Virus record (IMG/VR): IMGVR_UViG_3300026543_000012
Span: 1 to 46,515 of that record
Direction: 5' to 3' (one strand)
Origin: a virus
Lineage: Duplodnaviria; Caudoviricetes
DNA: 46,515 nucleotides
The translations under genes were made by a program, and so were the position numbers. This document shows, piece after piece, positions 6,814-38,528 of this stretch (position 1 is its first letter; every line of letters begins with the position of its first letter). Under the pieces are notes generated by a model, which searched no databases, was not told where the DNA came from, and saw nothing but the letters and a program-made list of their open reading frames with translations.

Positions 6814-7533
6814 TCAGCGGACATCTGCTAATAAGTCGAGTTGCGCTGTTTCGGCCTCGAATCGCTGCACCGCGGCATCGTAGTATTCCTTGTCAATTTC
6901 CATGCCTACAAAGTTAAACCGCATGTAATGAGCAGCTATCGCACTTGACCCTGATCCTAGATGCGTGTCGAGAATCTTATCACCTTCATTTGCGTAGTTA
7001 GTTAGCAACCACTCATATAGTTTTACGGGTTTCTGGGTTGGGTGGATTCGTTTTTCATTTCTTGATTTATCGCCAATTTGTATACCTGCTTTTTTTGCAT
7101 CATTGCCAATAATCAAACCCTGGCAAAAGCCCGCCCACATATACCTCACAATATCAACTCTGTTATTAATGCTGCAGTAAGCTATTTCACAATCATGTTG
7201 ATCCGTGTGATTGTTAAATTTATCCCAAACAATGCGGCCTGTACCGAAATAGTAATCGTAGTAATTGACACCCCAGATTATTTGATTTTCACTAACTCTT
7301 TTTAATTCGTTAAAATATTCACCGTCTGCAGGTAAATTATCCCAATCCTTATGTTGATACCCGCTATCAGGAATAAACGACCTCGAGCCATTACTTTGTT
7401 TTACATAACCCGCTTTGTTAGTTGGTTTAGATGAGCCTATCCCATAAGGCGGGTCAACAATAGCCAAATCAAAGGCGTTATTCTCACAATCCTTCATGTA
7501 ATCCATACAATCACAATTTAGAAGTTCAATCAT
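6814..7533 (-). CDS. DNA N6-adenine/N4-cytosine methyltransferase (beta class)
   Basis: DPPY, HPTQKP and LDTHLGSGS motifs. Confidence 0.93.
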   Translation of the reverse strand: MIELLNCDCMDYMKDCENNAFDLAIVDPPYGIGSSKPTNKAGYVKQSNGSRSFIPDSGYQHKDWDNLPADGEYFNELKRVSENQIIWGVNYYDYYFGTGRIVWDKFNNHTDQHDCEIAYCSINNRVDIVRYMWAGFCQGLIIGNDAKKAGIQIGDKSRNEKRIHPTQKPVKLYEWLLTNYANEGDKILDTHLGSGSSAIAAHYMRFNFVGMEIDKEYYDAAVQRFEAETAQLDLLADVR

Positions 7534-8144
7534 GCCGCTCTCGCTTGTTTTAATTCTTTCAGCTTCGCTTTATAGGTTTTTCTGATTTCAATTAAATCAC
7601 TAGCAGTATATTTTTTTGCATCGCGCGGGCCTTCCAACCATTCAACTTTAGCTAATCCAATACGTTGAATTAGTCTTTCCCGATATTCCTGGCTAACCGT
7701 GTGATTTTTCCTAGTGAATCTTCCAGAACCACCGTTACACGACTTGCACTGCTTATGGGCGTTTAATTCTTCAAACCTTAATTCAGAATGGGCACCAATA
7801 GTTAAAAAATGGCCGCAGTCCCATTTGCCACCAGTGTAATTATCTTTTATTTCGCCATCTGCCCGGCCACAACTAATACAAACCAGCCCCGCATCCCGTT
7901 CTCGGATATAAGCATTAAACGCTGGTTGAGCCTTGCGTAACTGATAACTTCGATTGTTGGCTCGGTGTTCCTTTGTCATTTTCCTGGTATCGGCATCATA
8001 ATTTTCCTTCACTCGGGCCGCCGCTATCTCTTGACCACATTTCGGCGAACACCAAACCACAATAGAATTGAATTGAGGGAACTTGACTGTACACCCTTTG
8101 TTCTTACAGGTTTTTAGTTTGGGCTTCTTTTTGGTTTGTTTCAT
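7530..8144 (-). CDS. ninG: NinG/Rap recombination endonuclease
   Basis: FNAYIRERD..CISCG, WDCGH, LRFEELNAHKQCKSCN, YRERLIQRIG..VEWLEG. Confidence 0.9.
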   Translation of the reverse strand: MKQTKKKPKLKTCKNKGCTVKFPQFNSIVVWCSPKCGQEIAAARVKENYDADTRKMTKEHRANNRSYQLRKAQPAFNAYIRERDAGLVCISCGRADGEIKDNYTGGKWDCGHFLTIGAHSELRFEELNAHKQCKSCNGGSGRFTRKNHTVSQEYRERLIQRIGLAKVEWLEGPRDAKKYTASDLIEIRKTYKAKLKELKQARAA

Positions 8145-8455
8145 CCCGGTGGATTATCAGAGCAATAGTCATTATCTATAATTTCTGGAATTTTTGCACA
8201 AAGCACATCTTCTGATATTGAGCCATCTTCACATATAAAAGCCCTGTCTCCTATAGACTCGCCGCACTGTTTCAATAAACCACGATAATAATCCGTATTA
8301 CGTTGATTCTGTGCCGCTGTTTGCATCCAAAGGGATAATTTTTTGGCAAAGGCTTCTGCTAATATAACGTCCATTTCAATATTATCTGTTTCCTTTTCAC
8401 ACCAACATTGTGCCGCCAACCCTCTCGCTTCTTCTAAAAAATCATAATCATTCAT
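8141..8455 (-). CDS. Hypothetical protein
   Basis: 104 aa; ATGA overlap with ninG. Confidence 0.7.
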   Translation of the reverse strand: MNDYDFLEEARGLAAQCWCEKETDNIEMDVILAEAFAKKLSLWMQTAAQNQRNTDYYRGLLKQCGESIGDRAFICEDGSISEDVLCAKIPEIIDNDYCSDNPPG

Positions 8456-8672
8456 TTCTTAATCCTCGTTAATCATTCTTAGTGACAAGGGATAAAAAAC
8501 ATACCTATACCACCACCTATTTCATATATCAATTGTACATAACCTTCTTCAGGAAATGATGGGTAAATATTCCTTAAACCGGATTCGACCAAAGCACAGG
8601 CTTCGGCTGGTAATTCAAATATAAATGTACGCCACCCTTCTCCACATACTAGTATAGATACTATTATGGTTT

Positions 8673-9158
8673 TCATTCTGGCGGGTCCAAAATAAACATA
8701 GCTATGTGCCACCCCGTCCCTTTTCCTTCGGATCCATCCTCTGTGGCACACCACTTAACATCGCCTAAATTTTCAATCCTTGCGCCTGCTTTCATCAACA
8801 TCAGCATCCACTTGTCTAACGGGTAAACCATCACTATTCGCTTTCCTTTTTTGTTTTCCTCTATGGCTTTACGCGCCCATGCTGTCGGACCCTTCTTTTT
8901 ACCGTTGTGATGTATAGATCCAAAAGGAGGATTAACGTAGGTGCTTGCACCCCATTCATCTGTCAGCCCGTCGAAGGTGTCTGGTTTCGGATACGGACAT
9001 GCATCGCAAGTAAAATGAAAACGCTCATCTAGTTTTTTCATTAAGTCTGGTGGTGTTAGCCAATAGTGCTTTCCGTCTTCCGCACCATCGGCAAACTTGG
9101 TATTTTCTATTTCGGCAGCAGTATCGGCGTGGGTATTAAACAAAAGTGCTTGCATCAC
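8673..9158 (-). CDS. Phage N6-adenine methyltransferase (short Dam-like)
   Basis: YWLTPP...F.CD.C, DGL..EW, YVNPPF, W.RKA..E. Confidence 0.8.
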   Translation of the reverse strand: MMQALLFNTHADTAAEIENTKFADGAEDGKHYWLTPPDLMKKLDERFHFTCDACPYPKPDTFDGLTDEWGASTYVNPPFGSIHHNGKKKGPTAWARKAIEENKKGKRIVMVYPLDKWMLMLMKAGARIENLGDVKWCATEDGSEGKGTGWHIAMFILDPPE

Positions 9159-9640
9159 GCCACCTGTAAATTTGCGTATTCAAGCAGACCGCTATCTGGG
9201 ATGGTGAGGTCTACTCCTATACTTTGGTAGTGCCGCTCGATATCCGTCATATATTCCGACATTTGCGCTACCGTGAAATCAGTGGTTGTCAGGAACGCAT
9301 CGGCAATATGCATTAGAGCTTCTGGTCTTGTTTTGTATTCAGTTTCAAGAGATTGGATAAATTCCCAATGTCCAGAATTATCACGTTGGATAATTCGCCT
9401 GGCGAAACGATATTTACAAATAATGTGCGCCCCTTCCTTTGTATCCTCATGCTTCCCACCAAACCCAGACTCAGATACTTCGGTCATCCATTTCCAGTAT
9501 AGCGCGTTTTGACGTGCCGACCGGCTTACTGAATCGCTGATAGTTACCTTGATACCACCGTTAATTTCTAGCGAACTGATACGCTGTAGGATTGTTCTGC
9601 GGGCGTTGTTGCTGCCAAGGAAATAGGATTCGGTTTTCAT
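9155..9640 (-). CDS. ninB: NinB/Orf family recombination protein
   Basis: RSARQNALYW and TTDFTVAQMSEY...IE motifs; nin context. Confidence 0.8.
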   Translation of the reverse strand: MKTESYFLGSNNARRTILQRISSLEINGGIKVTISDSVSRSARQNALYWKWMTEVSESGFGGKHEDTKEGAHIICKYRFARRIIQRDNSGHWEFIQSLETEYKTRPEALMHIADAFLTTTDFTVAQMSEYMTDIERHYQSIGVDLTIPDSGLLEYANLQVA

Positions 9641-9659
9641 ATTTTTATTTAATTAGTTG

Positions 9660-10073
9660 TTATGGTAAGCCAGAATAATCGCCAGTTGCCAATGGTCTTG
9701 GTTTCAATTGAATGCTAAAGGGCATCCCATCAATACTTATCCCTATATCCGCAACACCAAAACCCATTCCGGTATCAGTTATTTTTGCGCCTTGTGCTTG
9801 TAATGCACTCTCAACCCATTCCCTTAAATTTAAAAACGCCTCTATATCCATATCGCATAAACTAGCGGTTTTCTTTGGAGCAGATATGTTTGTTGGGTGA
9901 TCCTGTCCTTCAAAATCAACATTATAAATGTTACAATCATGCCTTCTACACCATACCTGTAGACCATTTCTAGTAAGACCTACCTCTATTTGTTGGTATT
10001 CCTGTGCAGATAAACCACTAGGAATATCATCAAGACACTTAATACAATGCATAAAATCATTTATTTGTTTCAT
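9660..10073 (-). CDS. Hypothetical protein with Cys/His pairs
   Basis: HCIKC and WCRRH. Confidence 0.65.
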   Translation of the reverse strand: MKQINDFMHCIKCLDDIPSGLSAQEYQQIEVGLTRNGLQVWCRRHDCNIYNVDFEGQDHPTNISAPKKTASLCDMDIEAFLNLREWVESALQAQGAKITDTGMGFGVADIGISIDGMPFSIQLKPRPLATGDYSGLP

Positions 10074-10330
10074 CCCACCATTCCATAAAGCCAGTTATCG
10101 CAAACTATCTGAGCGTAGGTTTTAACTAACGGTTGTTTCTTCTTCGGTTTCGGCCAGCTGCGTTTACAGTGCCGGGCTTTGTGAATACCAGCACAATGAG
10201 GGCTACAGAAACGTGCTAATTTCCTTTCTGCCGGTGACATTTTTGCACCTTTTGGGTTTATTGCCGTAGGCTTCCGGCGCATTGGTATTTCCTTATCACA
10301 CTCAGGTAATTCGCAAAAGTAGTCAGTCAT
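10070..10330 (-). CDS. Small Zn-finger protein
   Basis: C-x4-C...RFCSPHC. Confidence 0.6.
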   Translation of the reverse strand: MTDYFCELPECDKEIPMRRKPTAINPKGAKMSPAERKLARFCSPHCAGIHKARHCKRSWPKPKKKQPLVKTYAQIVCDNWLYGMVG

Positions 10331-10566
10331 TCTGATGGTTCCAGTGGGTAGGGTTCGCTGTCAGCTTCCGGTATTTCACCAGACAATGCACAAGACCTAA
10401 AAAATGCAGAGTTATTTTCTAGTTCCCGGATTCTTCCTTCATAAAAGGATTCCCCATCCAGTCTTGCCCACTCCCTCTTTTCAAGAACCTTGTTTCTTTC
10501 TTCCAATTCTCCGACCAAACTAAGCAATGCCGCTACACATTCATTCAATTTCTCATAATCACTCAT
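10327..10566 (-). CDS. Hypothetical coiled-coil protein
   Basis: 79 aa; GGAG RBS; overlap-coupled. Confidence 0.65.
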   Translation of the reverse strand: MSDYEKLNECVAALLSLVGELEERNKVLEKREWARLDGESFYEGRIRELENNSAFFRSCALSGEIPEADSEPYPLEPSE

Positions 10567-10604
10567 TATTCATACTCCTGCTTAGATAGTCCGAGGTGTT
10601 AGTT

Positions 10605-10826
10605 TCATTGACCAACATACCAGGTATTTTCGGGATTTTCTTTCTCCCACAACCTATGCCCTCCTTTAATCGGTTCACCATCAACTTTGCCACAACAATT
10701 AAAACAAGCACCAGCCCTCAAATCTTTATATTCTTGGCAAATCATACAGTTTCCCATTTGGGCATGACTGACATAACTATCAGGATATTTTTCTAAGGCT
10801 TCTTTTAAAGTATTAAATATCTCCAT
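10605..10826 (-). CDS. Small Cys-rich hypothetical protein
   Basis: CMIC...CFNC. Confidence 0.6.
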   Translation of the reverse strand: MEIFNTLKEALEKYPDSYVSHAQMGNCMICQEYKDLRAGACFNCCGKVDGEPIKGGHRLWEKENPENTWYVGQ

Positions 10827-11229
10827 TTCTCCAACCTCTTATATAGTCGGCAAACTCAAGGCGCTTTGCTGAGGACATTGGCAGAGGCCGGGATGGTTTG
10901 TGTTTTTGAATATGCGCTTCTACAAATCTATTAACATATTTATTTATTTCTTCTTTTTTGTCCATTTCCAGGTACATTCTTCTTTTATCAACATCTTCCC
11001 ATAAAACCTTACACCGATTCCAATATGTCAAATCCCAACTTATCATTGGCTTGCCTGATCCTCCCATATCTTTACACCAGTACATCTTAAATCCATGTAG
11101 TTGATGTTCGCACCAGGATCGGTTCTCTCCATAGTTGGTCATCTGGTGTTTATCAGCATTATTACCCCAGAAATATTCTTCGTCTGGTTGCCAGGATTTA
11201 AATAGTTTGGTTTTTAGTTTCTTTTTCAT
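10813..11229 (-). CDS. Hypothetical protein
   Basis: 138-aa ORF in operon. Confidence 0.65.
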   Translation of the reverse strand: MKKKLKTKLFKSWQPDEEYFWGNNADKHQMTNYGENRSWCEHQLHGFKMYWCKDMGGSGKPMISWDLTYWNRCKVLWEDVDKRRMYLEMDKKEEINKYVNRFVEAHIQKHKPSRPLPMSSAKRLEFADYIRGWRNGDI

Positions 11230-11231
11230 AT

Positions 11232-11423
11232 CTAACCCAATGATGGGTTATCCATCCATGCTTTTGCCTCTCGCACTGTTTCACAAATACGAGACATTAA
11301 AGTAGTATTTCTTACCCCGCCTGTTACCCAGATAGATTTCTTATCTCGATGAGCCATGTATTTATCAGGGTCTTTTTTGCCAGCATAGACTTTTAACTCT
11401 TTATGTTGCGATTTAAATTTCAT
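11232..11423 (-). CDS. Hypothetical protein (start revised to MKFKSQH)
   Basis: ATG at 11423 after GGAAAG; a longer start would overlap the Lar-like gene. Confidence 0.55.
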   Translation of the reverse strand: MKFKSQHKELKVYAGKKDPDKYMAHRDKKSIWVTGGVRNTTLMSRICETVREAKAWMDNPSLG

Positions 11424-11445
11424 TTCACTTTCCCTATAGAGATAG

Positions 11446-11649
11446 CTAACCCGGTTTTTTAATAGACCTACAATTCCATTCTCGCGCTGCTTTTTCGAAA
11501 GATTTCCTATAATGAGTTGATGGTCGAATAGTACAACCTTTGTTGTTACACGCAACCCATGGCCTATCAACTCCATTCCGATAAGTAGGTTTCCCACCAC
11601 AAAATGGACAAGTATCTAGTTCAATATTTGCTGGTAGTTCTTTAGTCAT
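11446..11649 (-). CDS. Lar-like (restriction alleviation) Zn-ribbon protein
   Basis: CPFCGG...VAC..C...AAREWN.R. Confidence 0.75.
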   Translation of the reverse strand: MTKELPANIELDTCPFCGGKPTYRNGVDRPWVACNNKGCTIRPSTHYRKSFEKAAREWNCRSIKKPG

Positions 11650-11699
11650 ATTCCAAACCTATTAAAGATAGCTATCCACGGTGATATATTAATTCACCA

Positions 11700-11918
11700 T
11701 TAAACCTTTGTGTAATCTGGAAGGCTATTCATTGTTTTCTCTGCCTTTAAATCTAATTCAGCTTGTTGCCATCCCATCTCCCAGTAAACCCTTTGAGCTT
11801 GGAATTTCTGGCTGAGATTTTCAAAAGGATTCTTAGCAAGACCAAGTTTATAGGCTTCGTAACCTTCGTGGTATGTCGGTTGGTCTTGTGGTATCGATAA
11901 TCTTTTCATAAAAAACAC
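11700..11918 (-). CDS. Rmf/CrpP-like small protein
   Basis: YHEGYEAY..G...NPF.......W..GW..A. Confidence 0.6.
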   Translation of the reverse strand: MFFMKRLSIPQDQPTYHEGYEAYKLGLAKNPFENLSQKFQAQRVYWEMGWQQAELDLKAEKTMNSLPDYTKV

Positions 11919-11988
11919 CTATTTGTCGAAGGGGCTGTTGACTTTTTTCTTTCTTGCATTAACAAAACACCGGGCCTAAAACCGGAAC

Positions 11989-11997
11989 TTATCCACA
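11989..11997 (+). promoter_or_regulatory. Consensus DnaA box TTATCCACA
   Basis: Exact match to the E. coli R-box consensus, in an intergenic region. Confidence 0.55.
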
Positions 11998-12390
11998 GGC
12001 TGTGTAATATGTTTTAACGTGTGGCTATCTAGCCTGGTCTTTCATGGGCCAGAACCCACGTAATTTAATACCGTCGAACAAGTAGCCACACTCAAAACAT
12101 ACTACAACAAATACTGCGCTTGGTTGCCTATAACGAATTATTAACGTTGTTTATCCGTTCGCTGCCAAGACAGCTATCGGCGCTCGGTGTCATTTTGTAG
12201 GAAATCATCAATGAATCCAATCGCTCCTGTTTGTTTCCACAGGCCCAAAGCGCCGTTATAAGCAAATCGGGTTAAAGTGTTACCAAAAGTAACAAATGTC
12301 CTTGAAATGGGTTTTGAGGTTGGTATAATGCCGTAATGGATTCGGTTAACCTTCTCTGAAAACCTGATTCAAAGGCGCTTCTAACGCCGA
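11990..12390 (-). ncRNA. Putative long structured leader or primer RNA (RNA II-like)
   Basis: No ORF. Stems 12003-12027/12083-12106 and 12124-12135/12254-12265 have substitutions that are G.U only on the minus strand. Upstream minus promoter present. Confidence 0.5.
12302..12329 (+). promoter_or_regulatory. Sigma70 promoter for antisense RNA A
   Basis: TTGAAA-16-TATAAT with extended TG. Confidence 0.7.
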
Positions 12391-12396
12391 TACGTA

Positions 12397-12424
12397 ATAC
12401 TAAGCCTTGTGGGTAAAACTGCAA
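12397..12424 (-). promoter_or_regulatory. Leftward sigma70 promoter embedded in the terminator hairpin
   Basis: TTGCAG-16-TAGTAT with an upstream A-tract. Confidence 0.55.
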
Positions 12425-12433
12425 GGCTTTTTT
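12402..12433 (+). terminator. Intrinsic terminator
   Basis: AAGCCTTGT...GCAAGGCTT followed by a T-run. Confidence 0.7.
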
Positions 12434-12450
12434 ATTTGTGTTATAATTTC

Positions 12451-12655
12451 CCTGTTCAACTTGCGGGCGGGTTACTGTGACCGGCCGTGCAACAACAGGA
12501 GAGTGCGGTGGGAGGCGAAAGCCGATGAAACCACGGACTCGATGGGAAAGTCCTTTCTGGAAGCCCTTAAAGGAAAACTATTCGATAGCATCAACCTGGC
12601 CGGTAAATAGATTAGAGACCTGAATCTTCTTCTGTTGATTGCACAACTTTTTTTA
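12451..12655 (+). ncRNA. Putative ~200-nt structured RNA
   Basis: TGTTATAAT extended -10 at 12439-12447; nested hairpins; GGC-GAAA-GCC tetraloop; ends GTTG..CAAC-T7. Confidence 0.5.
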
Positions 12656-12674
12656 CTCCCGGTCGGCAATTGAG

Positions 12675-12869
12675 TCAACCGGGAGAATCTAATTTCCCGG
12701 CTTCCACACCAGCAAAAAAAACTTTAGATATCTCTCTACCCCATGTTAAGTCTTCTGGGGCGTACACATTACTTTCATCATTCCAGGTGAAATATAATTC
12801 TCCATTGACATATACTTCATGTATACCTGTGTAGCAATCGTCTGATTCTTTTTCTACAACCTTTATCAT
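12675..12869 (-). CDS. Hypothetical acidic protein
   Basis: AGGAGAATGATT-ATG junction. Confidence 0.65.
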   Translation of the reverse strand: MIKVVEKESDDCYTGIHEVYVNGELYFTWNDESNVYAPEDLTWGREISKVFFAGVEAGKLDSPG

Positions 12870-12902
12870 AATCATTCTCCTTCAATGGCTTTTTTAATTC
12901 TG

Positions 12903-13133
12903 TTATAATTCATTTTTCAAAACCTTTTCTATAAAAGGAAGGTAGGTTATAACACCCAAGTAAGCGTCCCCAGAATGACAGGGTGAGCCATCTATCATTA
13001 CTCTTTTATTTTTAAAAACAAAAGTAAGAAAGCCTCCGCAGTCGCTATCAAATCGAACCTCTAATGCTCCCATTTCTTGCAATATTGAAACTACTTCTTC
13101 CATATTTTGTGCCATATTAAGTGTATCTTTCAT
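12903..13133 (-). CDS. Hypothetical protein
   Basis: AGGATAATGATT-ATG junction. Confidence 0.6.
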   Translation of the reverse strand: MKDTLNMAQNMEEVVSILQEMGALEVRFDSDCGGFLTFVFKNKRVMIDGSPCHSGDAYLGVITYLPFIEKVLKNEL

Positions 13134-13291: not shown

Positions 13292-13364
13292 AATCATTCT
13301 CCTGTGCCGTTATAAGCAAGATACTTTAATAAGGGGCTTTTTATTTAATAATATAGATTGATTA

Positions 13365-13583: not shown

Positions 13584-13614
13584 AGTCATTCTCCTGGTAT
13601 CAACTGCGATAAGT

Positions 13615-13769
13615 GATTGTGCTTAGTGATAGAGGCAGGGCGCTATGCTGCTACCTGTATATGGGTTTTGGGTTTTTATCTTTTCGTGTGAGTGTCACTT
13701 ACCAGTGCCTCGTTCTTCACGTTTCCCAATGCCTGTTTGCTCCAGGCTTCTCTATCATTAAACACAATC
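13615..13769. ncRNA. Element closed by a 20-bp inverted repeat
   Basis: GATTGTGCTTAGTGATAGAG / CTCTATCATTAAACACAATC (18/20). Confidence 0.45.
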
Positions 13770-13797
13770 CCAGCTATAGAACTGTCGATTGAATGGA

Positions 13798-13887
13798 GGT
13801 AGCGCCCAATCTACTCGGCAAACACCCACTGGGTTAGGTGCCTAAGCCTCTGAATCCGAAGAATCAGGGTTGCCTTATTGTGCTACC
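13798..13887 (-). ncRNA. Branched structured element with a cUUCGg tetraloop
   Basis: GGTAGC closing stem, GGCAA/TTGCC stem, and CTGATTC-TTCG-GATTCAG hairpin on the minus strand. Confidence 0.5.
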
Positions 13888-13897
13888 ATTGTCCAGC

Positions 13898-14056
13898 TTA
13901 ATTATCTTTATATTCAACCAAATCTTCTATAATCTTTGCATAATCAATATCTTCTTTAGTTGTGTTGGTTAAATAAATTGCAACAACAGCCTCCAGTGGG
14001 ATTTCTTCATCACCATCTAAAGTTTCTAATCGTTGTGTTAATTCTATTACTTTCAT
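13898..14056 (-). CDS. 52-aa acidic microprotein (not in ORF track)
   Basis: MKVIELTQRLETLDGDEEIPLEAVV... Confidence 0.55.
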   Translation of the reverse strand: MKVIELTQRLETLDGDEEIPLEAVVAIYLTNTTKEDIDYAKIIEDLVEYKDN

Positions 14057-14206
14057 AGCTACCATAATTCAATCTATGCCCTGTAAGGACTGTAACGACC
14101 GGAGCCAGCCGTGCTGCTTTACGAGCCTACTTTCGGTTTTTGGGTATGCAGCAACCCCTTCTCATGGAATTCAATCTATCGGTATTAGACATTATTGAAT
14201 ACGTTG

Positions 14207-14235
14207 TTGACTAACTGGTAAAGAATCTTTATATT
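14207..14235 (+). promoter_or_regulatory. Sigma70 promoter for antisense RNA B
   Basis: TTGACT-17-TATATT. Confidence 0.7.
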
Positions 14236-14241
14236 GCCACT

Positions 14242-14351
14242 GTGTGTGGCGGAAGAAAAGACGATAGCTAGTGTTATCTGATTCAAAGGCAGTCTAGTGC
14301 CGATGCCATTAATACTAAGGGGTTTGTTCATATTGTTCAAACCCCTTTTTT
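14242..14351 (+). ncRNA. Putative ~110-nt antisense RNA B with terminator at 14317-14351
   Basis: CTGATTCAAAGGC..GCCGAT..TAATACTAAG shared with RNA A; AAGGGGTTTG/CAAACCCCTT plus T-run. Confidence 0.55.
14312..14340 (-). promoter_or_regulatory. Leftward sigma70 promoter embedded in the terminator hairpin
   Basis: TTGAAC-17-TAGTAT. Confidence 0.6.
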
Positions 14352-14352
14352 A

Positions 14353-14610
14353 TTACCAAAGCCTATATGTTGTATGTGACTTCCCTTGTTCTTTTAGGGC
14401 TATCGCATCATACACATGTTGGTGCTTGCAATTGTTCATGGGTGGTATAATGGCTTGCATTACAGGATAATATCGCTTTGTTTTATTCGGCACCACAGTA
14501 ACTATTCTCCCTTCAGATTGCATTAATCGACTAGCCTTTTTAGCCTTATTTATGCTTCCCATGTCTTTACCATCTAAGATTTTACCTGCTCTTACTATTC
14601 CCATAATCAT
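14353..14610 (-). CDS. Hypothetical basic protein
   Basis: 85 aa; GAGGAAATGATT junction. Confidence 0.6.
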   Translation of the reverse strand: MIMGIVRAGKILDGKDMGSINKAKKASRLMQSEGRIVTVVPNKTKRYYPVMQAIIPPMNNCKHQHVYDAIALKEQGKSHTTYRLW

Positions 14611-14645: not shown

Positions 14646-14990
14646 TTAATCGGTAAGTACATGAACCTTTTCACGTTCGCTTTCGATTTGATTCTGTATG
14701 TCGGGGTCGTCTATGCGTAGCAGTGAATGTTCTTGCTTCGCGTCATATTCAACATACGGCGGGCATCCATATTTAATTACATCTAAATCGGTTGCCCAAT
14801 AGCCGTAAAATTCTGCATCATCAATTATTTTAAAAAGCACAGTAACTTCTTTGCCGCGCGCTTTAGAATTAGAATCAATTATTATCGCTCTACATCCTGC
14901 CTCAATTGGTTTAGCGCCTATCATGCGGCATACTTCCGCAAATCTTCGATGTCCAGGTCCAGGGCTATCATTGGCTCGCCAAAAAATCAT
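14646..14990 (-). CDS. Hypothetical protein (true start probably downstream, MIGAKP)
   Basis: ORF in the leftward operon. Confidence 0.55.
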   Translation of the reverse strand: MIFWRANDSPGPGHRRFAEVCRMIGAKPIEAGCRAIIIDSNSKARGKEVTVLFKIIDDAEFYGYWATDLDVIKYGCPPYVEYDAKQEHSLLRIDDPDIQNQIESEREKVHVLTD

Positions 14991-15336
14991 GAATTCCCAG
15001 TTTTTCTATTAAATAAATAGGGTCATTGTTTAATGCTGAGCCTCGCTTGATATTGCATACTCGGCAAACAGGCTCAACGTCAAGCGGTTTCATGTAATCT
15101 CGATGATCATAATCTCGCGCTAGCTCACCGCAATCCACACACTGTATTTTACTACCCTTTAGTCTAGGCAAAATACCTGCATTGACGGCGGCATTAACTA
15201 TCGAACCAGAGACCCTTTTCGGAGTTGTTGTTATTCCTAACTCAACTCTTTTATCGCGGCATCTTTTGCAATACCATTTCCGAGCATCGGTTTTTGGCAG
15301 TTTGTGTCCGCAAATTCGGCACAAACTGGCAGTCAT
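14968..15336 (-). CDS. Zn-binding HNH-like protein
   Basis: CRICG..YCKRC; CVDCG....DHRDYMKPLDVEPVCRVCN. Confidence 0.65.
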   Translation of the reverse strand: MTASLCRICGHKLPKTDARKWYCKRCRDKRVELGITTTPKRVSGSIVNAAVNAGILPRLKGSKIQCVDCGELARDYDHRDYMKPLDVEPVCRVCNIKRGSALNNDPIYLIEKLGIHDFLASQ

Positions 15337-15506
15337 TTCCGCCTCACAAGATAGTTATACAATATATCAACCTTATCCTCAGAATTAAACTCACCGCGCT
15401 TAAACTTCTGTAGCCAGCGAACCTGCAAACCAGTTGCTTCGTGTATTTCGGAAACCCCTAAGCTGGTGGTTTTGATTAGCTCTAAAGCCTTTTCTTTTCT
15501 AGTCAT
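15333..15506 (-). CDS. Cro-like HTH regulator, 57 aa (not in ORF track)
   Basis: MTRKEKALELIKTTSLGVSEIHEATGLQVRWLQKFKRGE...KVDILYNYL; first gene of the leftward operon. Confidence 0.7.
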   Translation of the reverse strand: MTRKEKALELIKTTSLGVSEIHEATGLQVRWLQKFKRGEFNSEDKVDILYNYLVRRK

Positions 15507-32857: not shown

Positions 32858-33388
32858 TTAAATTGCGTCAGCTTCAGCCCATGAAATGGAGCATAATCCT
32901 GTTCTTGCGGCTGTGAGTGTCGAGAAGCAAACATAAGTTCCCGGGGTTACAACCAGCGTACCGTTAAATTTAGCTTCAAACGCCTGGTTTCCATCTTGTG
33001 AACCTGTAATCCTGATATGACCGATAGGCCGTATCCATACTGGAGTGGTCAGCAATGTTGCAACACTAAACACTCTTGCAGCGCCAATATTAGCATTAGA
33101 GCCTTTTAGTTTTGCATTATGTATGACGGCTGCAGTACCTGTTTGAACGGCATTAGCCACCGCAGAAGAAACAGCAATTCCCATTTCAGCAATAGTGGAA
33201 AGCGTTGAGCCTACAAAAGACATATTATCAACGATTAAATCTTTCCCGCTATTGATTGGGTTTGACAACACCAGTCCCGTGCAAGTCGCCGACAAGACCG
33301 TGACTGCGCCAGAGGTCGTGTTGTGACTGTGATACATATTACCCAATCGTGCTTGATCTAAAAACCAATTACTCATATTAATCTCCAA
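32858..33388 (-). CDS. Virion structural protein
   Basis: L.NP.NSGK.L...LVVTPG; beta-rich. Confidence 0.6.
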   Translation of the reverse strand: MEINMSNWFLDQARLGNMYHSHNTTSGAVTVLSATCTGLVLSNPINSGKDLIVDNMSFVGSTLSTIAEMGIAVSSAVANAVQTGTAAVIHNAKLKGSNANIGAARVFSVATLLTTPVWIRPIGHIRITGSQDGNQAFEAKFNGTLVVTPGTYVCFSTLTAARTGLCSISWAEADAI

Positions 33389-34360
33389 TTATGCTGCTTG
33401 GTTAGGGTTGACAAGTCCACCCTGGCTGGCAACTGCTCCAGTGCTATATACCGCGGATGCTCTTAGGTTACTGGCAATTGTGTATGCAACACCTGTGGTA
33501 TCTAGCGTATGCACGTAACAATTAGTTATAAAACCAGTGCTGGTAGTGCCGGTAACTTTAACTAGAGTGTTTATATTGGTAGTACCAAGTACCCCAACAG
33601 TACAATCTTGCATCAAGAAGTCAGTGACAATGCCTGTAACGTCTAATATTGCTGGTTCATCAGCAGTATCAATACTGTCCACTAGGACATTTTTGAATGT
33701 CATCCCTCTGGCCGTAGCAGCTAAAACAGCAAAAGTATTAAACGTAGTACCAAGCATGGATGCCCGGCAATTTTCGATATGTAGACCGTCAACCGTATTA
33801 GCAGCTCCGGTAGACTCGATAATATTGACAGTGTTCAGTGATGCGCTTGTATCACTAAATCCACAACCAACCATTGCGAAATTTTTGGCTGTAGTCAGTG
33901 TGAACATAATTGCATTACTAAGGAAGTTAGCAACAAAATCACAATTCATAATGGTGACGTTGGCGGCTGTTACAGCAACGGTAACGGTGTTGGCTGTATC
34001 AAATGTGAATGTTGGTTTCAACGAACCGGAACCCAAACCTACAATTGCCACTCCAGCAACATCGAGGGTTAGGTCATCTGATGTTGCCGTGGCAGTGGAG
34101 TAAGTCTCCGTATGGCCGGGCAAAATCATAATAATATCGCCACGGTTGGCAGTACATTGACCAATTGCAAAATCTAATGTCCGAAATGGTCGGGCAAAAG
34201 TTCCTTTGCCGGCCGTATCAGCACCGGCGAGTTGTTGTCCGTCATTATAAAGAACATCGGCATTGCCAACATAGAACACTCTGCCGGGATGCAACAATGT
34301 GAGGGGCATCCCTCGCAGGACTAAGTTGTTAATCCCATTGGGATAAGTACTAGCACTCAT
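33389..34360 (-). CDS. Capsid-associated beta-helix protein (head fibre-like)
   Basis: GTF.RPF.TL..AI..C.ANRGD.I...PGH.E; follows the major capsid gene. Confidence 0.65.
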   Translation of the reverse strand: MSASTYPNGINNLVLRGMPLTLLHPGRVFYVGNADVLYNDGQQLAGADTAGKGTFARPFRTLDFAIGQCTANRGDIIMILPGHTETYSTATATSDDLTLDVAGVAIVGLGSGSLKPTFTFDTANTVTVAVTAANVTIMNCDFVANFLSNAIMFTLTTAKNFAMVGCGFSDTSASLNTVNIIESTGAANTVDGLHIENCRASMLGTTFNTFAVLAATARGMTFKNVLVDSIDTADEPAILDVTGIVTDFLMQDCTVGVLGTTNINTLVKVTGTTSTGFITNCYVHTLDTTGVAYTIASNLRASAVYSTGAVASQGGLVNPNQAA

Positions 34361-37889: not shown

Positions 37890-38112
37890 GCTTAGTCCTC
37901 ATTTTCTCGCTCAACAATAATGCGTCATTCCACATTATTTCACAATAATCAATAATTAAACTTCTAAATGGCCTGAGATACCACGGCATATCTACCATCA
38001 ACCTATCTATATGAATTTTTCGTGCGGCTGCATAGGCATTGGTTATACCTGGCCCATCATACTCTGCAATAAACCCTTCTGGTTTGAGTTGCGACAACCC
38101 TAAATCACTCAT
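37882..38112 (-). CDS. Hypothetical protein
   Basis: 76 aa, coupled. Confidence 0.55.
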   Translation of the reverse strand: MSDLGLSQLKPEGFIAEYDGPGITNAYAAARKIHIDRLMVDMPWYLRPFRSLIIDYCEIMWNDALLLSEKMRTKHA

Positions 38113-38528
38113 AGTTTAGTCTCCATTTTACCTAAAATACTTTCATCGTTGGTAAATCGATACCAGTTACCACTACCAGGCGGGAGTTCTACCTCTACAC
38201 CTGCGTATCGGTCAAATATTAACACATCGCCTTCCTGCACCCAGTCTTGCATTCCCAACCCTTCGGCCTTGAATGCATAATCTCCTTTACTGATAAGAAT
38301 ACCGTGATGAGTACCAAAAGATTCTTTCTTTTTCTGAGCTTCGGTTTTAACCTCGAAACCTGCCTTCCCTAAAGTCTCAAACTCTGATTTCTCAGCTTGT
38401 TCTAATTCTGTTGTGGCGTCTATAGGTTTTATCATTAACCTGTAACCAACAGCTACAGGAGTTCCATTTGCGATTAAATCCCTTGCATCTTCAATCATTC
38501 TATCAGGCAATTCAATAACAGCATTCAT
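38109..38528 (-). CDS. groES: GroES/Cpn10-like co-chaperonin
   Basis: GYRLMIKP, G.LISKG, VQEGD.LIFDRYAG.E, YRF.ND..ILG. Confidence 0.8.
   Translation of the reverse strand: MNAVIELPDRMIEDARDLIANGTPVAVGYRLMIKPIDATTELEQAEKSEFETLGKAGFEVKTEAQKKKESFGTHHGILISKGDYAFKAEGLGMQDWVQEGDVLIFDRYAGVEVELPPGSGNWYRFTNDESILGKMETKL

What the first reader, a model, noticed from the sequence alone, without database searches (positions are those of the whole stretch)
11920..12433. Candidate RNA-controlled replication origin (ColE1 RNA I/RNA II-like) in place of O/P genes
Seen: the genome is circular and has no recognisable initiator, helicase, primase or polymerase. In the cro-to-nin interval there is an ORF-free stretch. 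A strong rightward promoter (12302-12329) would make a ~95-nt RNA ending at a terminator (12402-12433). That terminator hairpin also contains a leftward promoter (12424-12397). The leftward transcript carries long stems whose substitutions are G.U only on that strand. About 400 nt downstream is a perfect DnaA box (11989-11997). GCCTGTGGA occurs twice on the minus strand (12244-12236, 12000-11992), reminiscent of GCCTATGGAAAAA at the ColE1 RNA/DNA switch. Known: ColE1-type and Vibrionaceae MRB plasmids replicate without a Rep protein, using a primer RNA and a short antisense RNA against its 5' end. Inference: this may be a tailed phage using an RNA-primed, antisense-controlled origin. Caveats: I see no ColE1-like G6 tract. 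An antisense attenuation or immunity switch (lambda OOP, P22 sar, P4 CI-like) is an alternative.
Basis: partly seen in the sequence, partly recalled or inferred. Interest (0 to 1): 0.9.

Follow-up and report, generated by a model that had tools for sequence, protein, structure and literature searches.

The report
Antisense-gated long RNA in Rep-less phage
Where related phages carry genes that start DNA copying, this phage has a gene-free stretch predicted to make a long folded RNA and a short RNA against its start, which likely primes replication as in ColE1-type plasmids, although a second copy of the switch elsewhere in the genome keeps plain gene control a serious alternative.

Summary
The features are there. 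The complete 46.4-kb podovirus genome gives no initiator, helicase, primase, polymerase or integrase hit. At 12302-12436 a strong rightward promoter and terminator frame a ~100-nt three-hairpin RNA. A leftward promoter lies inside the terminator, ahead of ~470 ORF-free bases with strand-specific stems and a DnaA box. The leftward promoter is weak alone, but its hexamers and spacing recur in all four complete or inferred copies. New: the module occurs twice here (also 14207-14353) and twice in a second complete Rep-less phage (G040). G040's same slot also holds a ~470-nt leader with a long stem, followed by an RNA/DNA-hybrid-binding gene, but no DnaA box and no sequence likeness. In a metagenome relative, part of the leader is far better conserved than a nearby gene (2/171 versus 23/238 differences). 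It is not ColE1 or MRB by sequence: no Rfam hit, no G-tract, and the GCCTGTGGA repeat is chance. Best reading: an antisense-gated, RNA-primed origin (0.45); rival: an antisense-controlled leader or immunity switch (0.33). Nothing is shown experimentally. RNA-based prophage origins have a published precedent.

The parts
12302..12329 (+). Rightward sigma-70 promoter of the small RNA (TTGAAA-16-TG-TATAAT)
   Evidence: 11/12; hexamers kept while the spacer varies in G040 and X1 record 3
12336..12436 (+). Predicted ~100-nt small RNA: hairpin, conserved linker, hairpin, terminator; antisense to the first ~55 nt of the leftward RNA
   Evidence: one two-sided change among 4 pairs of hairpin 2 in 3 sequences, not significant
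12402..12433 (+). Intrinsic terminator hairpin with U-tract; contains the -35 and spacer of the leftward promoter
12397..12424 (-). Leftward promoter TTGCAG-16-TAGTAT inside the terminator
   Evidence: weak alone (7/12); TTG..-17-TAGTAT in copy 2 and G040 and inferred for X1 record 3 from its difference table
11920..12390 (-). Predicted ~470-nt ORF-free leftward RNA (candidate pre-primer, or leader)
   Evidence: start inferred from the -10; no leftward intrinsic terminator found
12124..12265 (-). Stem domain A, strongly conserved block
   Evidence: z -3.03 minus, -0.84 plus; 2 differences in 171 nt (12095-12265) in X1 record 2 against 23 in 238 in a gene on that contig, p=2e-4
12000..12110 (-). 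Stem domain B: long G.U-containing stem, one bulge, exchangeable branched apex
   Evidence: X1 record 2 keeps both outer arms and replaces 80 nt by 192 nt; G040 has an unalignable stem of the same build
11989..12009 (.). Perfect DnaA box (11989-11997) and a one-mismatch inverted partner (12001-12009)
   Evidence: no listed change in X1 record 2; the same 19-mer lies beside further DnaA boxes in 9 of 21 distinct metagenome contexts; absent from G040's leader
12651..12693 (-). Type-B promoter hairpin, apparently decayed here (TTGACT-17-TAAAAA); intact in G040 (TTGACC-17-TAAAAT), where it heads the matching leader
   Evidence: X1 record 5
14207..14353 (+). Second copy of the convergent promoter / small-RNA module, ahead of a different non-coding cluster (13590-14200)
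15333..15506 (-). Small Cro-like HTH gene heading the leftward early operon; no CI-like repressor found
   Evidence: weak PHROG hit; homolog in G040
14968..15336 (-). Zn/HNH nuclease-fold protein, one of the few early proteins shared with G040; not a known initiator fold
   Evidence: model pLDDT 89.7; best match HNH nicking endonuclease 4h9d, Z 4.6, rmsd 2.8, 61 aligned; no Foldseek match at E<=0.001
7530..11918 (-). Downstream nin-type genes (RMF-like 11700, Lar-like 11446, NinB 9155, methylase, NinG 7530), fixing the O/P slot

Best explanation
The stretch is a pair of facing predicted promoters that would make a ~470-nt folded leftward RNA and a ~100-nt antisense RNA against its first ~55 bases, and the long RNA likely serves as the primer of a protein-free replication origin in a phage that shows no replication genes. 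Shown: the sequence anatomy, its recurrence, the missing genes. Inferred: host RNA polymerase starts at about 12390; the RNA folds stems A and B and its 3' part stays paired to the template near 12000-11950; host RNase H and Pol I extend it leftward; DnaA on the exposed box (or PriA) loads the host helicase. The abundant small RNA would pair loop to loop with the nascent 5' end and cap initiation, so its variable loops would set incompatibility or superinfection groups. Read-through from the cro promoter, and Erf/NinB/NinG recombination, would lift or bypass the cap in lytic growth. The upstream copy would gate a separate RNA cluster.
For: Both complete genomes with the module lack replication hits. 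Among 8 capsid relatives none has the module, and G019, G025/G026 and G010 have clear replication genes and G031 a weak split O-like gene. Same slot and same ~470-nt ORF-free length in the window and G040, close to MRB RNA II, 465 nt (PMC3035462). DnaA box on the long-RNA strand, as in ColE1. Purifying selection on the block. Gene after G040's leader is a stand-alone RNase H1 hybrid-binding domain (PF01693, E 2e-13). No leftward intrinsic terminator in the leaders, and the one short ORF with a ribosome site gains a stop in X1 record 2. Loops vary while stems and linkers stay.
Against: The module is present twice per genome, and the copy closest in sequence to this one (G040, 86% over 77 nt) stands before a tRNA-like cluster, not a DnaA region. 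No G-tract, no ColE1/MRB sequence likeness. G040's leader has no DnaA box, does not align and as a whole folds no better than shuffles (z -1.36). Overlap is 49-67 nt, whereas MRB RNA II covers all of RNA I. G039 (97% complete) lacks both replication hits and the module. The anti-correlation is not significant (Fisher p=0.14). The leader runs on into about 20 co-directional genes. No RNA data.
Confidence: 0.45

Rival explanations
1. Antisense-controlled leader or RNA immunity switch: the leftward promoter drives the nin-region genes; the small RNA silences it after an initial burst or in a carrier state (P22 sar / P4 CI / P1 C4 logic, recalled), and the long stems are processing or antitermination signals. 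Replication starts elsewhere or by recombination.
For: Two tandem modules per genome, one before tRNA-like and other structured RNAs; no CI-like repressor; leader is co-directional with downstream genes; short 5' overlap is typical of such switches (own knowledge); DnaA box not shared with G040.
Against: No intrinsic terminator or conserved leader peptide in the leader; 470 nt is long for a translational switch; no antirepressor or icd-like gene downstream; no Rfam C4 or similar hit; leaves the missing origin unexplained.
Confidence: 0.33
2. Mobile promoter/terminator cassette that works as a recombination joint for shuffling small early genes (PeSL-like), the small RNA being a by-product.
For: Several whole and partial copies in the operon (12302, 12651, 12887, 13307-13345, 14207); X1 contigs switch sequence at these points and mix type A and B hairpins; PeSL precedent (PMC4122927, abstract).
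Against: A conserved, stronger promoter pointing against the operon is not needed for that; does not explain the conserved 171-nt block or the stems.
Confidence: 0.12
3. A small unrecognised protein starts replication (for example the shared HNH-fold protein 14968-15336 nicking an origin), and the stems act as single-stranded DNA signals.
For: G031 shows that O-like genes can be split and nearly invisible; the HNH-fold gene is shared with G040; G.T pairs are possible in single-stranded DNA.
Against: All unassigned early ORFs are under 170 aa; the two put to the Atlas gave no initiator lead; the HNH family is widespread (198 homologs); facing promoters are not explained.
Confidence: 0.1

Closest known systems
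MRB (Marine RNA-based) plasmid origins, pB1067 type (PMC3035462)
   Same: No Rep ORF; ~500-bp origin; long RNA of 465 nt and a short abundant antisense RNA with strong promoter and intrinsic terminator at its 5' end; specificity in loops.
   Different: MRB RNA I is 68 nt with two stem-loops and wholly covered by RNA II, which has no consensus promoter; here ~100 nt, three hairpins, ~55-nt overlap, promoter inside the terminator, two modules per genome, and a tailed phage. No sequence hit; MRB records could not be fetched for a direct test.
ColE1/pMB1 origin (RNA II, RNA I; Rfam RNAI)
   Same: Convergent long and short RNAs; three-hairpin antisense RNA of about 100 nt; DnaA box on the long-RNA strand.
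   Different: No Rfam RNAI hit, no alignment beyond chance, no G6 tracts, no Rop; the leftward promoter lies within the antisense terminator.
RNA-based prophage origins of cluster A mycobacteriophages (PMC7157519)
   Same: Tailed phage, no integrase, no RepA, a non-coding RNA in the replication slot.
   Different: Those sit beside parABS and are dispensable for lytic growth; no antisense partner in the passages I read. Here no par genes, and no other replication gene at all.
T4 R-loop origins (PMC3016281, start of abstract only)
   Same: A transcript primes leading-strand synthesis; recombination-dependent replication follows.
   Different: T4 encodes its own replisome; no antisense control known to me.
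Phage antisense switches (P22 sar/ant, lambda OOP, P4 CI, P1 C4; recalled) and T4-type PeSL cassettes (PMC4122927)
   Same: Small RNA against an early-operon transcript; tRNA-like RNAs in the operon; repeated promoter/terminator cassettes as exchange points.
   Different: No ant/cII-like target next to the overlap, no Rfam hit; PeSL promoter and terminator face the same way (own knowledge).

Membership tests
ColE1-type origin | RNA I matching Rfam RNAI / sequence likeness to ColE1 origins | tested here: not met
   No hit at E<=5; no plasmid match beyond 40-nt chance hits among 72,556 records; only 8-17-nt matches to ColE1
ColE1-type origin | G6 tracts in RNA II, one just before the RNA/DNA switch | tested here: not met
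   ColE1 has G6 at 928 and 1175 of L217; longest G-run here is 3
ColE1-type origin | Convergent promoters giving a long RNA and a ~100-nt three-hairpin antisense RNA at its 5' end | tested here: met
   As sequence prediction only
ColE1-type origin | No Rep protein | tested here: met
   a very divergent small initiator is not excluded
ColE1-type origin | R-loop, RNase H and Pol I dependence, autonomous replication | not testable with these tools
   needs experiment
MRB origin | 110-bp RNA I core homologous to pB1067 | tested here: inconclusive
   No Vibrio hit, but pB1067 and pAK1 were not retrievable from the collection
MRB origin | 68-nt RNA I with two stem-loops, fully covered by RNA II | tested here: not met
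   ~100 nt, three hairpins, 55-nt overlap against PMC3035462; predicted ends only
Mycobacteriophage RNA-based prophage origin | parABS cassette next to the non-coding RNA | tested here: not met
   No ParA or ParB hit among 98 ORFs
C4 / CI-type immunity RNA | Match to the curated RNA families | tested here: not met
C4 / CI-type immunity RNA | Processed RNA pairing with targets in its own transcript and stopping transcription | not tested
   Only trans targets of the small RNAs were sought: none above 10 nt except the 13 nt shared by the two copies
Intrinsic attenuator | Terminator on the leader strand | tested here: not met
   None; Rho-dependent termination cannot be tested here

The most novel reading that the evidence does not exclude
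A lineage of marine-sediment podoviruses with no replication protein at all uses an antisense-gated primer RNA, unrelated in sequence to ColE1 or MRB, as its only origin, lytic growth included; the variable loops of the small RNA give repressor-free incompatibility or immunity groups.
Probability: 0.35. Interest if true: 0.87.

Novelty: new variant of a known kind. Interest (0 to 1): 0.62.

Why it matters
Some tailed phages show no replication genes, and how they start copying is open. This finding names a 550-bp fragment, with a natural counterpart in a second phage, that can be tested directly as a replicon. If it works, it is a further family of RNA-primed, antisense-controlled origins beside ColE1 and MRB, in a phage with no replisome or partition genes, and a searchable signature for annotating Rep-less phages. 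If it fails, it remains an uncatalogued, duplicated antisense switch in a phage without a CI-like repressor.

Tried and rejected
Rfam: nothing real in the element. Plasmid and phage BLAST: chance hits only; no cultured relative of the HNH-fold gene. DnaA-box-plus-repeat pattern: 10 viral loci, none homologous. 19-mer: 51 metagenome loci, none homologous. Exact promoter and stem patterns: 0. GTDB genomes: 0 for both module types. Relaxed viral pattern: 1 of 77 loci real, G040 again. 39 capsid-related records: no real match. NinG-related loci (6) lack the module; Erf and 14353 protein scans gave no locus. No RNA holder listed: no evidence either way. Model R1 found only its three training copies in 31 sources. 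attC reading of 12124-12265 rejected from the fold (multi-branch, arms not continuous). Leader-peptide reading rejected (stop in X1 record 2). GCCTGTGGA as a ColE1 switch mimic rejected. GC skew follows transcription and locates no origin. Fold searches list no initiator fold for 14968-15336, which does not exclude one. MRB and CLV records were not retrievable. The supplement of PMC5737381, which may describe the Methylophilales-1 RNA, was unreadable.

Full report
Setting. The window is one complete phage genome: a 117-nt terminal repeat, classed as direct terminal repeats and 100% complete. PHROGs and Pfam on 98 ORFs give a P22-like virion module, Erf, NinB, NinG, two methylases, several HNH genes, a Lar-like and an RMF-like gene and a 57-aa Cro-like HTH. 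They give no initiator, helicase, primase, polymerase, integrase, CI-like repressor or par gene. NCBIfam on 30 early or unassigned ORFs adds nothing. Six-frame searches for phrog_270, DnaB_C and tyrosine integrase are blank, while G019 answers for the first two. The finding lies in the leftward early operon between cro (15333) and the nin genes, the slot that holds O/P in lambdoid phages (own knowledge).

Observation. All coordinates check. The rightward promoter is the best site in 5 kb and the terminator the strongest; the predicted ~100-nt RNA folds at z -3.41. The minus strand of 11920-12400 folds at z -3.39, the plus strand at -2.37. The two stem domains favour the minus strand, and 12100-12300 is the lowest-scoring of 40 early-region windows sampled. 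The DnaA box is perfect, with a one-mismatch inverted partner three bases away. That 19-mer occurs in 51 metagenome loci, 21 distinct contexts, 9 of them with further boxes nearby.

A second copy. A scan for promoter-terminator small RNAs found a paralog at 14207-14353. It shares CTGATTCAAAGGC, GCCGAT and AATACTAAG, while the 5' part, the loops and the terminator arms differ. A pattern from the two copies found one viral record, G040; a relaxed pattern gave 77 loci, of which only G040 has the hairpins and both promoters. In copy 1, copy 2 and G040 the terminator holds TTG.. 16-17 nt from TAGTAT on the minus strand, although the hairpin sequences differ, and the difference table of X1 record 3 implies the same. 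This is the real support for the leftward promoter. Hairpin 2 shows one two-sided change in three sequences, too few to be significant (169 of 500 shuffles).

G040. It is complete, 44.5 kb, with a different capsid, and 65 of its proteins give no replication or integration hit. Its copy of the module is 86% identical to copy 1 over 77 nt, yet stands before a tRNA-like element (36.8 bits) and stems shared with the window's copy-2 region. Further down, in the slot matching the finding, G040 has a second, sequence-unrelated module: a leftward promoter TTGACC-17-TAAAAT inside a hairpin that the window keeps at 12651-12693 with a decayed -10, facing a rightward promoter 80 nt away. That hairpin has no canonical U-tract. 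Behind it run ~470 ORF-free bases with a long G.U stem (z -2.98 minus, -1.14 plus), then a stand-alone RNase H1 hybrid-binding domain gene. This leader has no DnaA box, does not align with the window's, and as a whole is not better folded than shuffles (z -1.36). A motif-free scan for facing promoters with one inside a hairpin finds two sites in the window, two in G040, none in eight capsid relatives, one in 40 shuffled genomes and none in 1.17 Mb of other loci. I set its thresholds after seeing the examples, so this shows specificity, not sensitivity; ColE1 itself is not caught.

Population data. Run X1 (marine sediment by its record) holds relatives across the region. One contig matches 11915-12014 and 12095-12265, replaces the apex of stem B (80 nt by 192 nt) and continues differently after 12265. 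The 171-nt block has 2 differences against 23 in 238 nt in a gene on the same contig (Fisher p=2e-4); recent recombination could also give this. One change is in a loop; the other is in a weak 2-bp stem and puts a stop in the short TTG-started ORF. Another contig has the small-RNA module 888 nt, not 331 nt, from 11942. Two more join one small-RNA hairpin to either promoter hairpin, so the two types are exchangeable. This is a single run.

Capsid relatives. Of 39 records none matches the element. For the eight longest I scanned 109 of 118 non-virion ORFs of 120 aa or more (nine dropped as virion, lysis or HNH genes, or near the end of a partial record; two crossing a file boundary were missed). 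G019, G025/G026 and G010 carry clear replication genes; G031 has a weak split O-like gene in the same slot; G039 (97%), G017 (75%) and G036 (58%) have none. So module-positive genomes are Rep-less in 2 of 2, Rep-positive lineages lack the module in 4 of 4, and G039 lacks both; p=0.14. The HNH-like early protein shared by the window and G040 models well and resembles HNH nicking endonucleases at modest Z.

Mechanism. A complete genome with no replication protein needs a cis element that host enzymes can fire. A ~470-nt ORF-free structured RNA with its own promoter, in the O/P slot of two such genomes, with a DnaA box on the RNA-like strand in one and a hybrid-binding gene behind it in the other, is the best candidate. 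A stronger facing promoter with variable loops fits copy-number or incompatibility control. Every functional step is inference. The duplication weighs against it: the switch is evidently reusable, the overlap is short, and the leader feeds about 20 genes. I give the origin 0.45, an antisense-controlled leader or immunity switch 0.33, a shuffling cassette 0.12 and a hidden protein initiator 0.10. The first three are not exclusive.

Known systems. It would work like ColE1 or MRB but is a member of neither by the tests run: no Rfam or BLAST match, no G6 tract where ColE1 has two, and RNA sizes and overlap unlike MRB. MRB sequence could not be compared directly. RNA-based prophage origins are published for mycobacteriophages, beside parABS and dispensable for lytic growth. 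Papers seen: PMC3035462, parts 2-4 of 6; PMC7157519, passages; PMC8683028, PMC5703827 and PMC5737381, passages (supplement of the last unreadable); PMC4122927, abstract; PMC3016281 and PMC2839356, search listing only. Four searches listed no tailed phage whose only origin is of this kind; the library lacks most subscription papers. P22 sar, OOP, P4 CI and C4 are recalled. Earlier scan notes describe ColE1-type origins in phage-plasmids and similar layouts in soil phages; they are unchecked leads, and they suggest the theme is not unique.

Verdict. A real, specific, uncatalogued sense/antisense RNA module in Rep-less podoviruses; origin function plausible, unproven and cheap to test. New variant of a known kind; interest 0.62.

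Noticed in passing
window 13797-13888 (-): Four-way structured RNA with a weak match to Rfam Methylophilales-1 (18.3 bits, E 1.9). It lies inside a long flanking stem (14060-14078 with 13787-13804) that in G040 encloses a tRNA-like element instead.
   Followed up: partly
window 13610-13772 (-); L133 7755-7925 and 9958-10142 (-): A recurring long-stem RNA (GATAGAG ... CTCTATC arms) in three copies over two genomes; 7 of 30 consensus pairs show two-sided changes; no Rfam match.
   Followed up: partly
L133 7668-7739 and 10162-10281 (-): Two degenerate tRNA-like elements in G040's early operon (Rfam tRNA 36.8 and 31.4 bits; not called by ARAGORN).
   Followed up: partly
window 12887-12910 and 13307-13345: Remnants of the module's terminator end and of the start of stem A between small genes, suggesting repeated recombination at these cassettes.
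   Followed up: partly
window 12440-12650: A further ~210-nt ORF-poor structured stretch between the type-B hairpin and copy 1, with a GGC-GAAA-GCCGAT hairpin on the plus strand like hairpin 2 of the small RNA.
   Followed up: no
G040 14982-15236 (L137, -): Stand-alone RNase H1 N-terminal hybrid-binding domain gene; one weak match among 50,697 phage records.
   Followed up: partly
G031 33270-33835 (L069 13270-13835, -): Apparent split O-like initiator: a 79-aa winged HTH and a 109-aa partner behind a 378-nt gap.
   Followed up: partly
G039 (L071-L073): 97% complete relative with no replication hit and no module; its origin is unexplained.
   Followed up: no
window 38109-38528 (-) and 11700-11918 (-): GroES-like gene in the head module, and a ribosome-modulation-factor-like gene right after the leader.
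   Followed up: no
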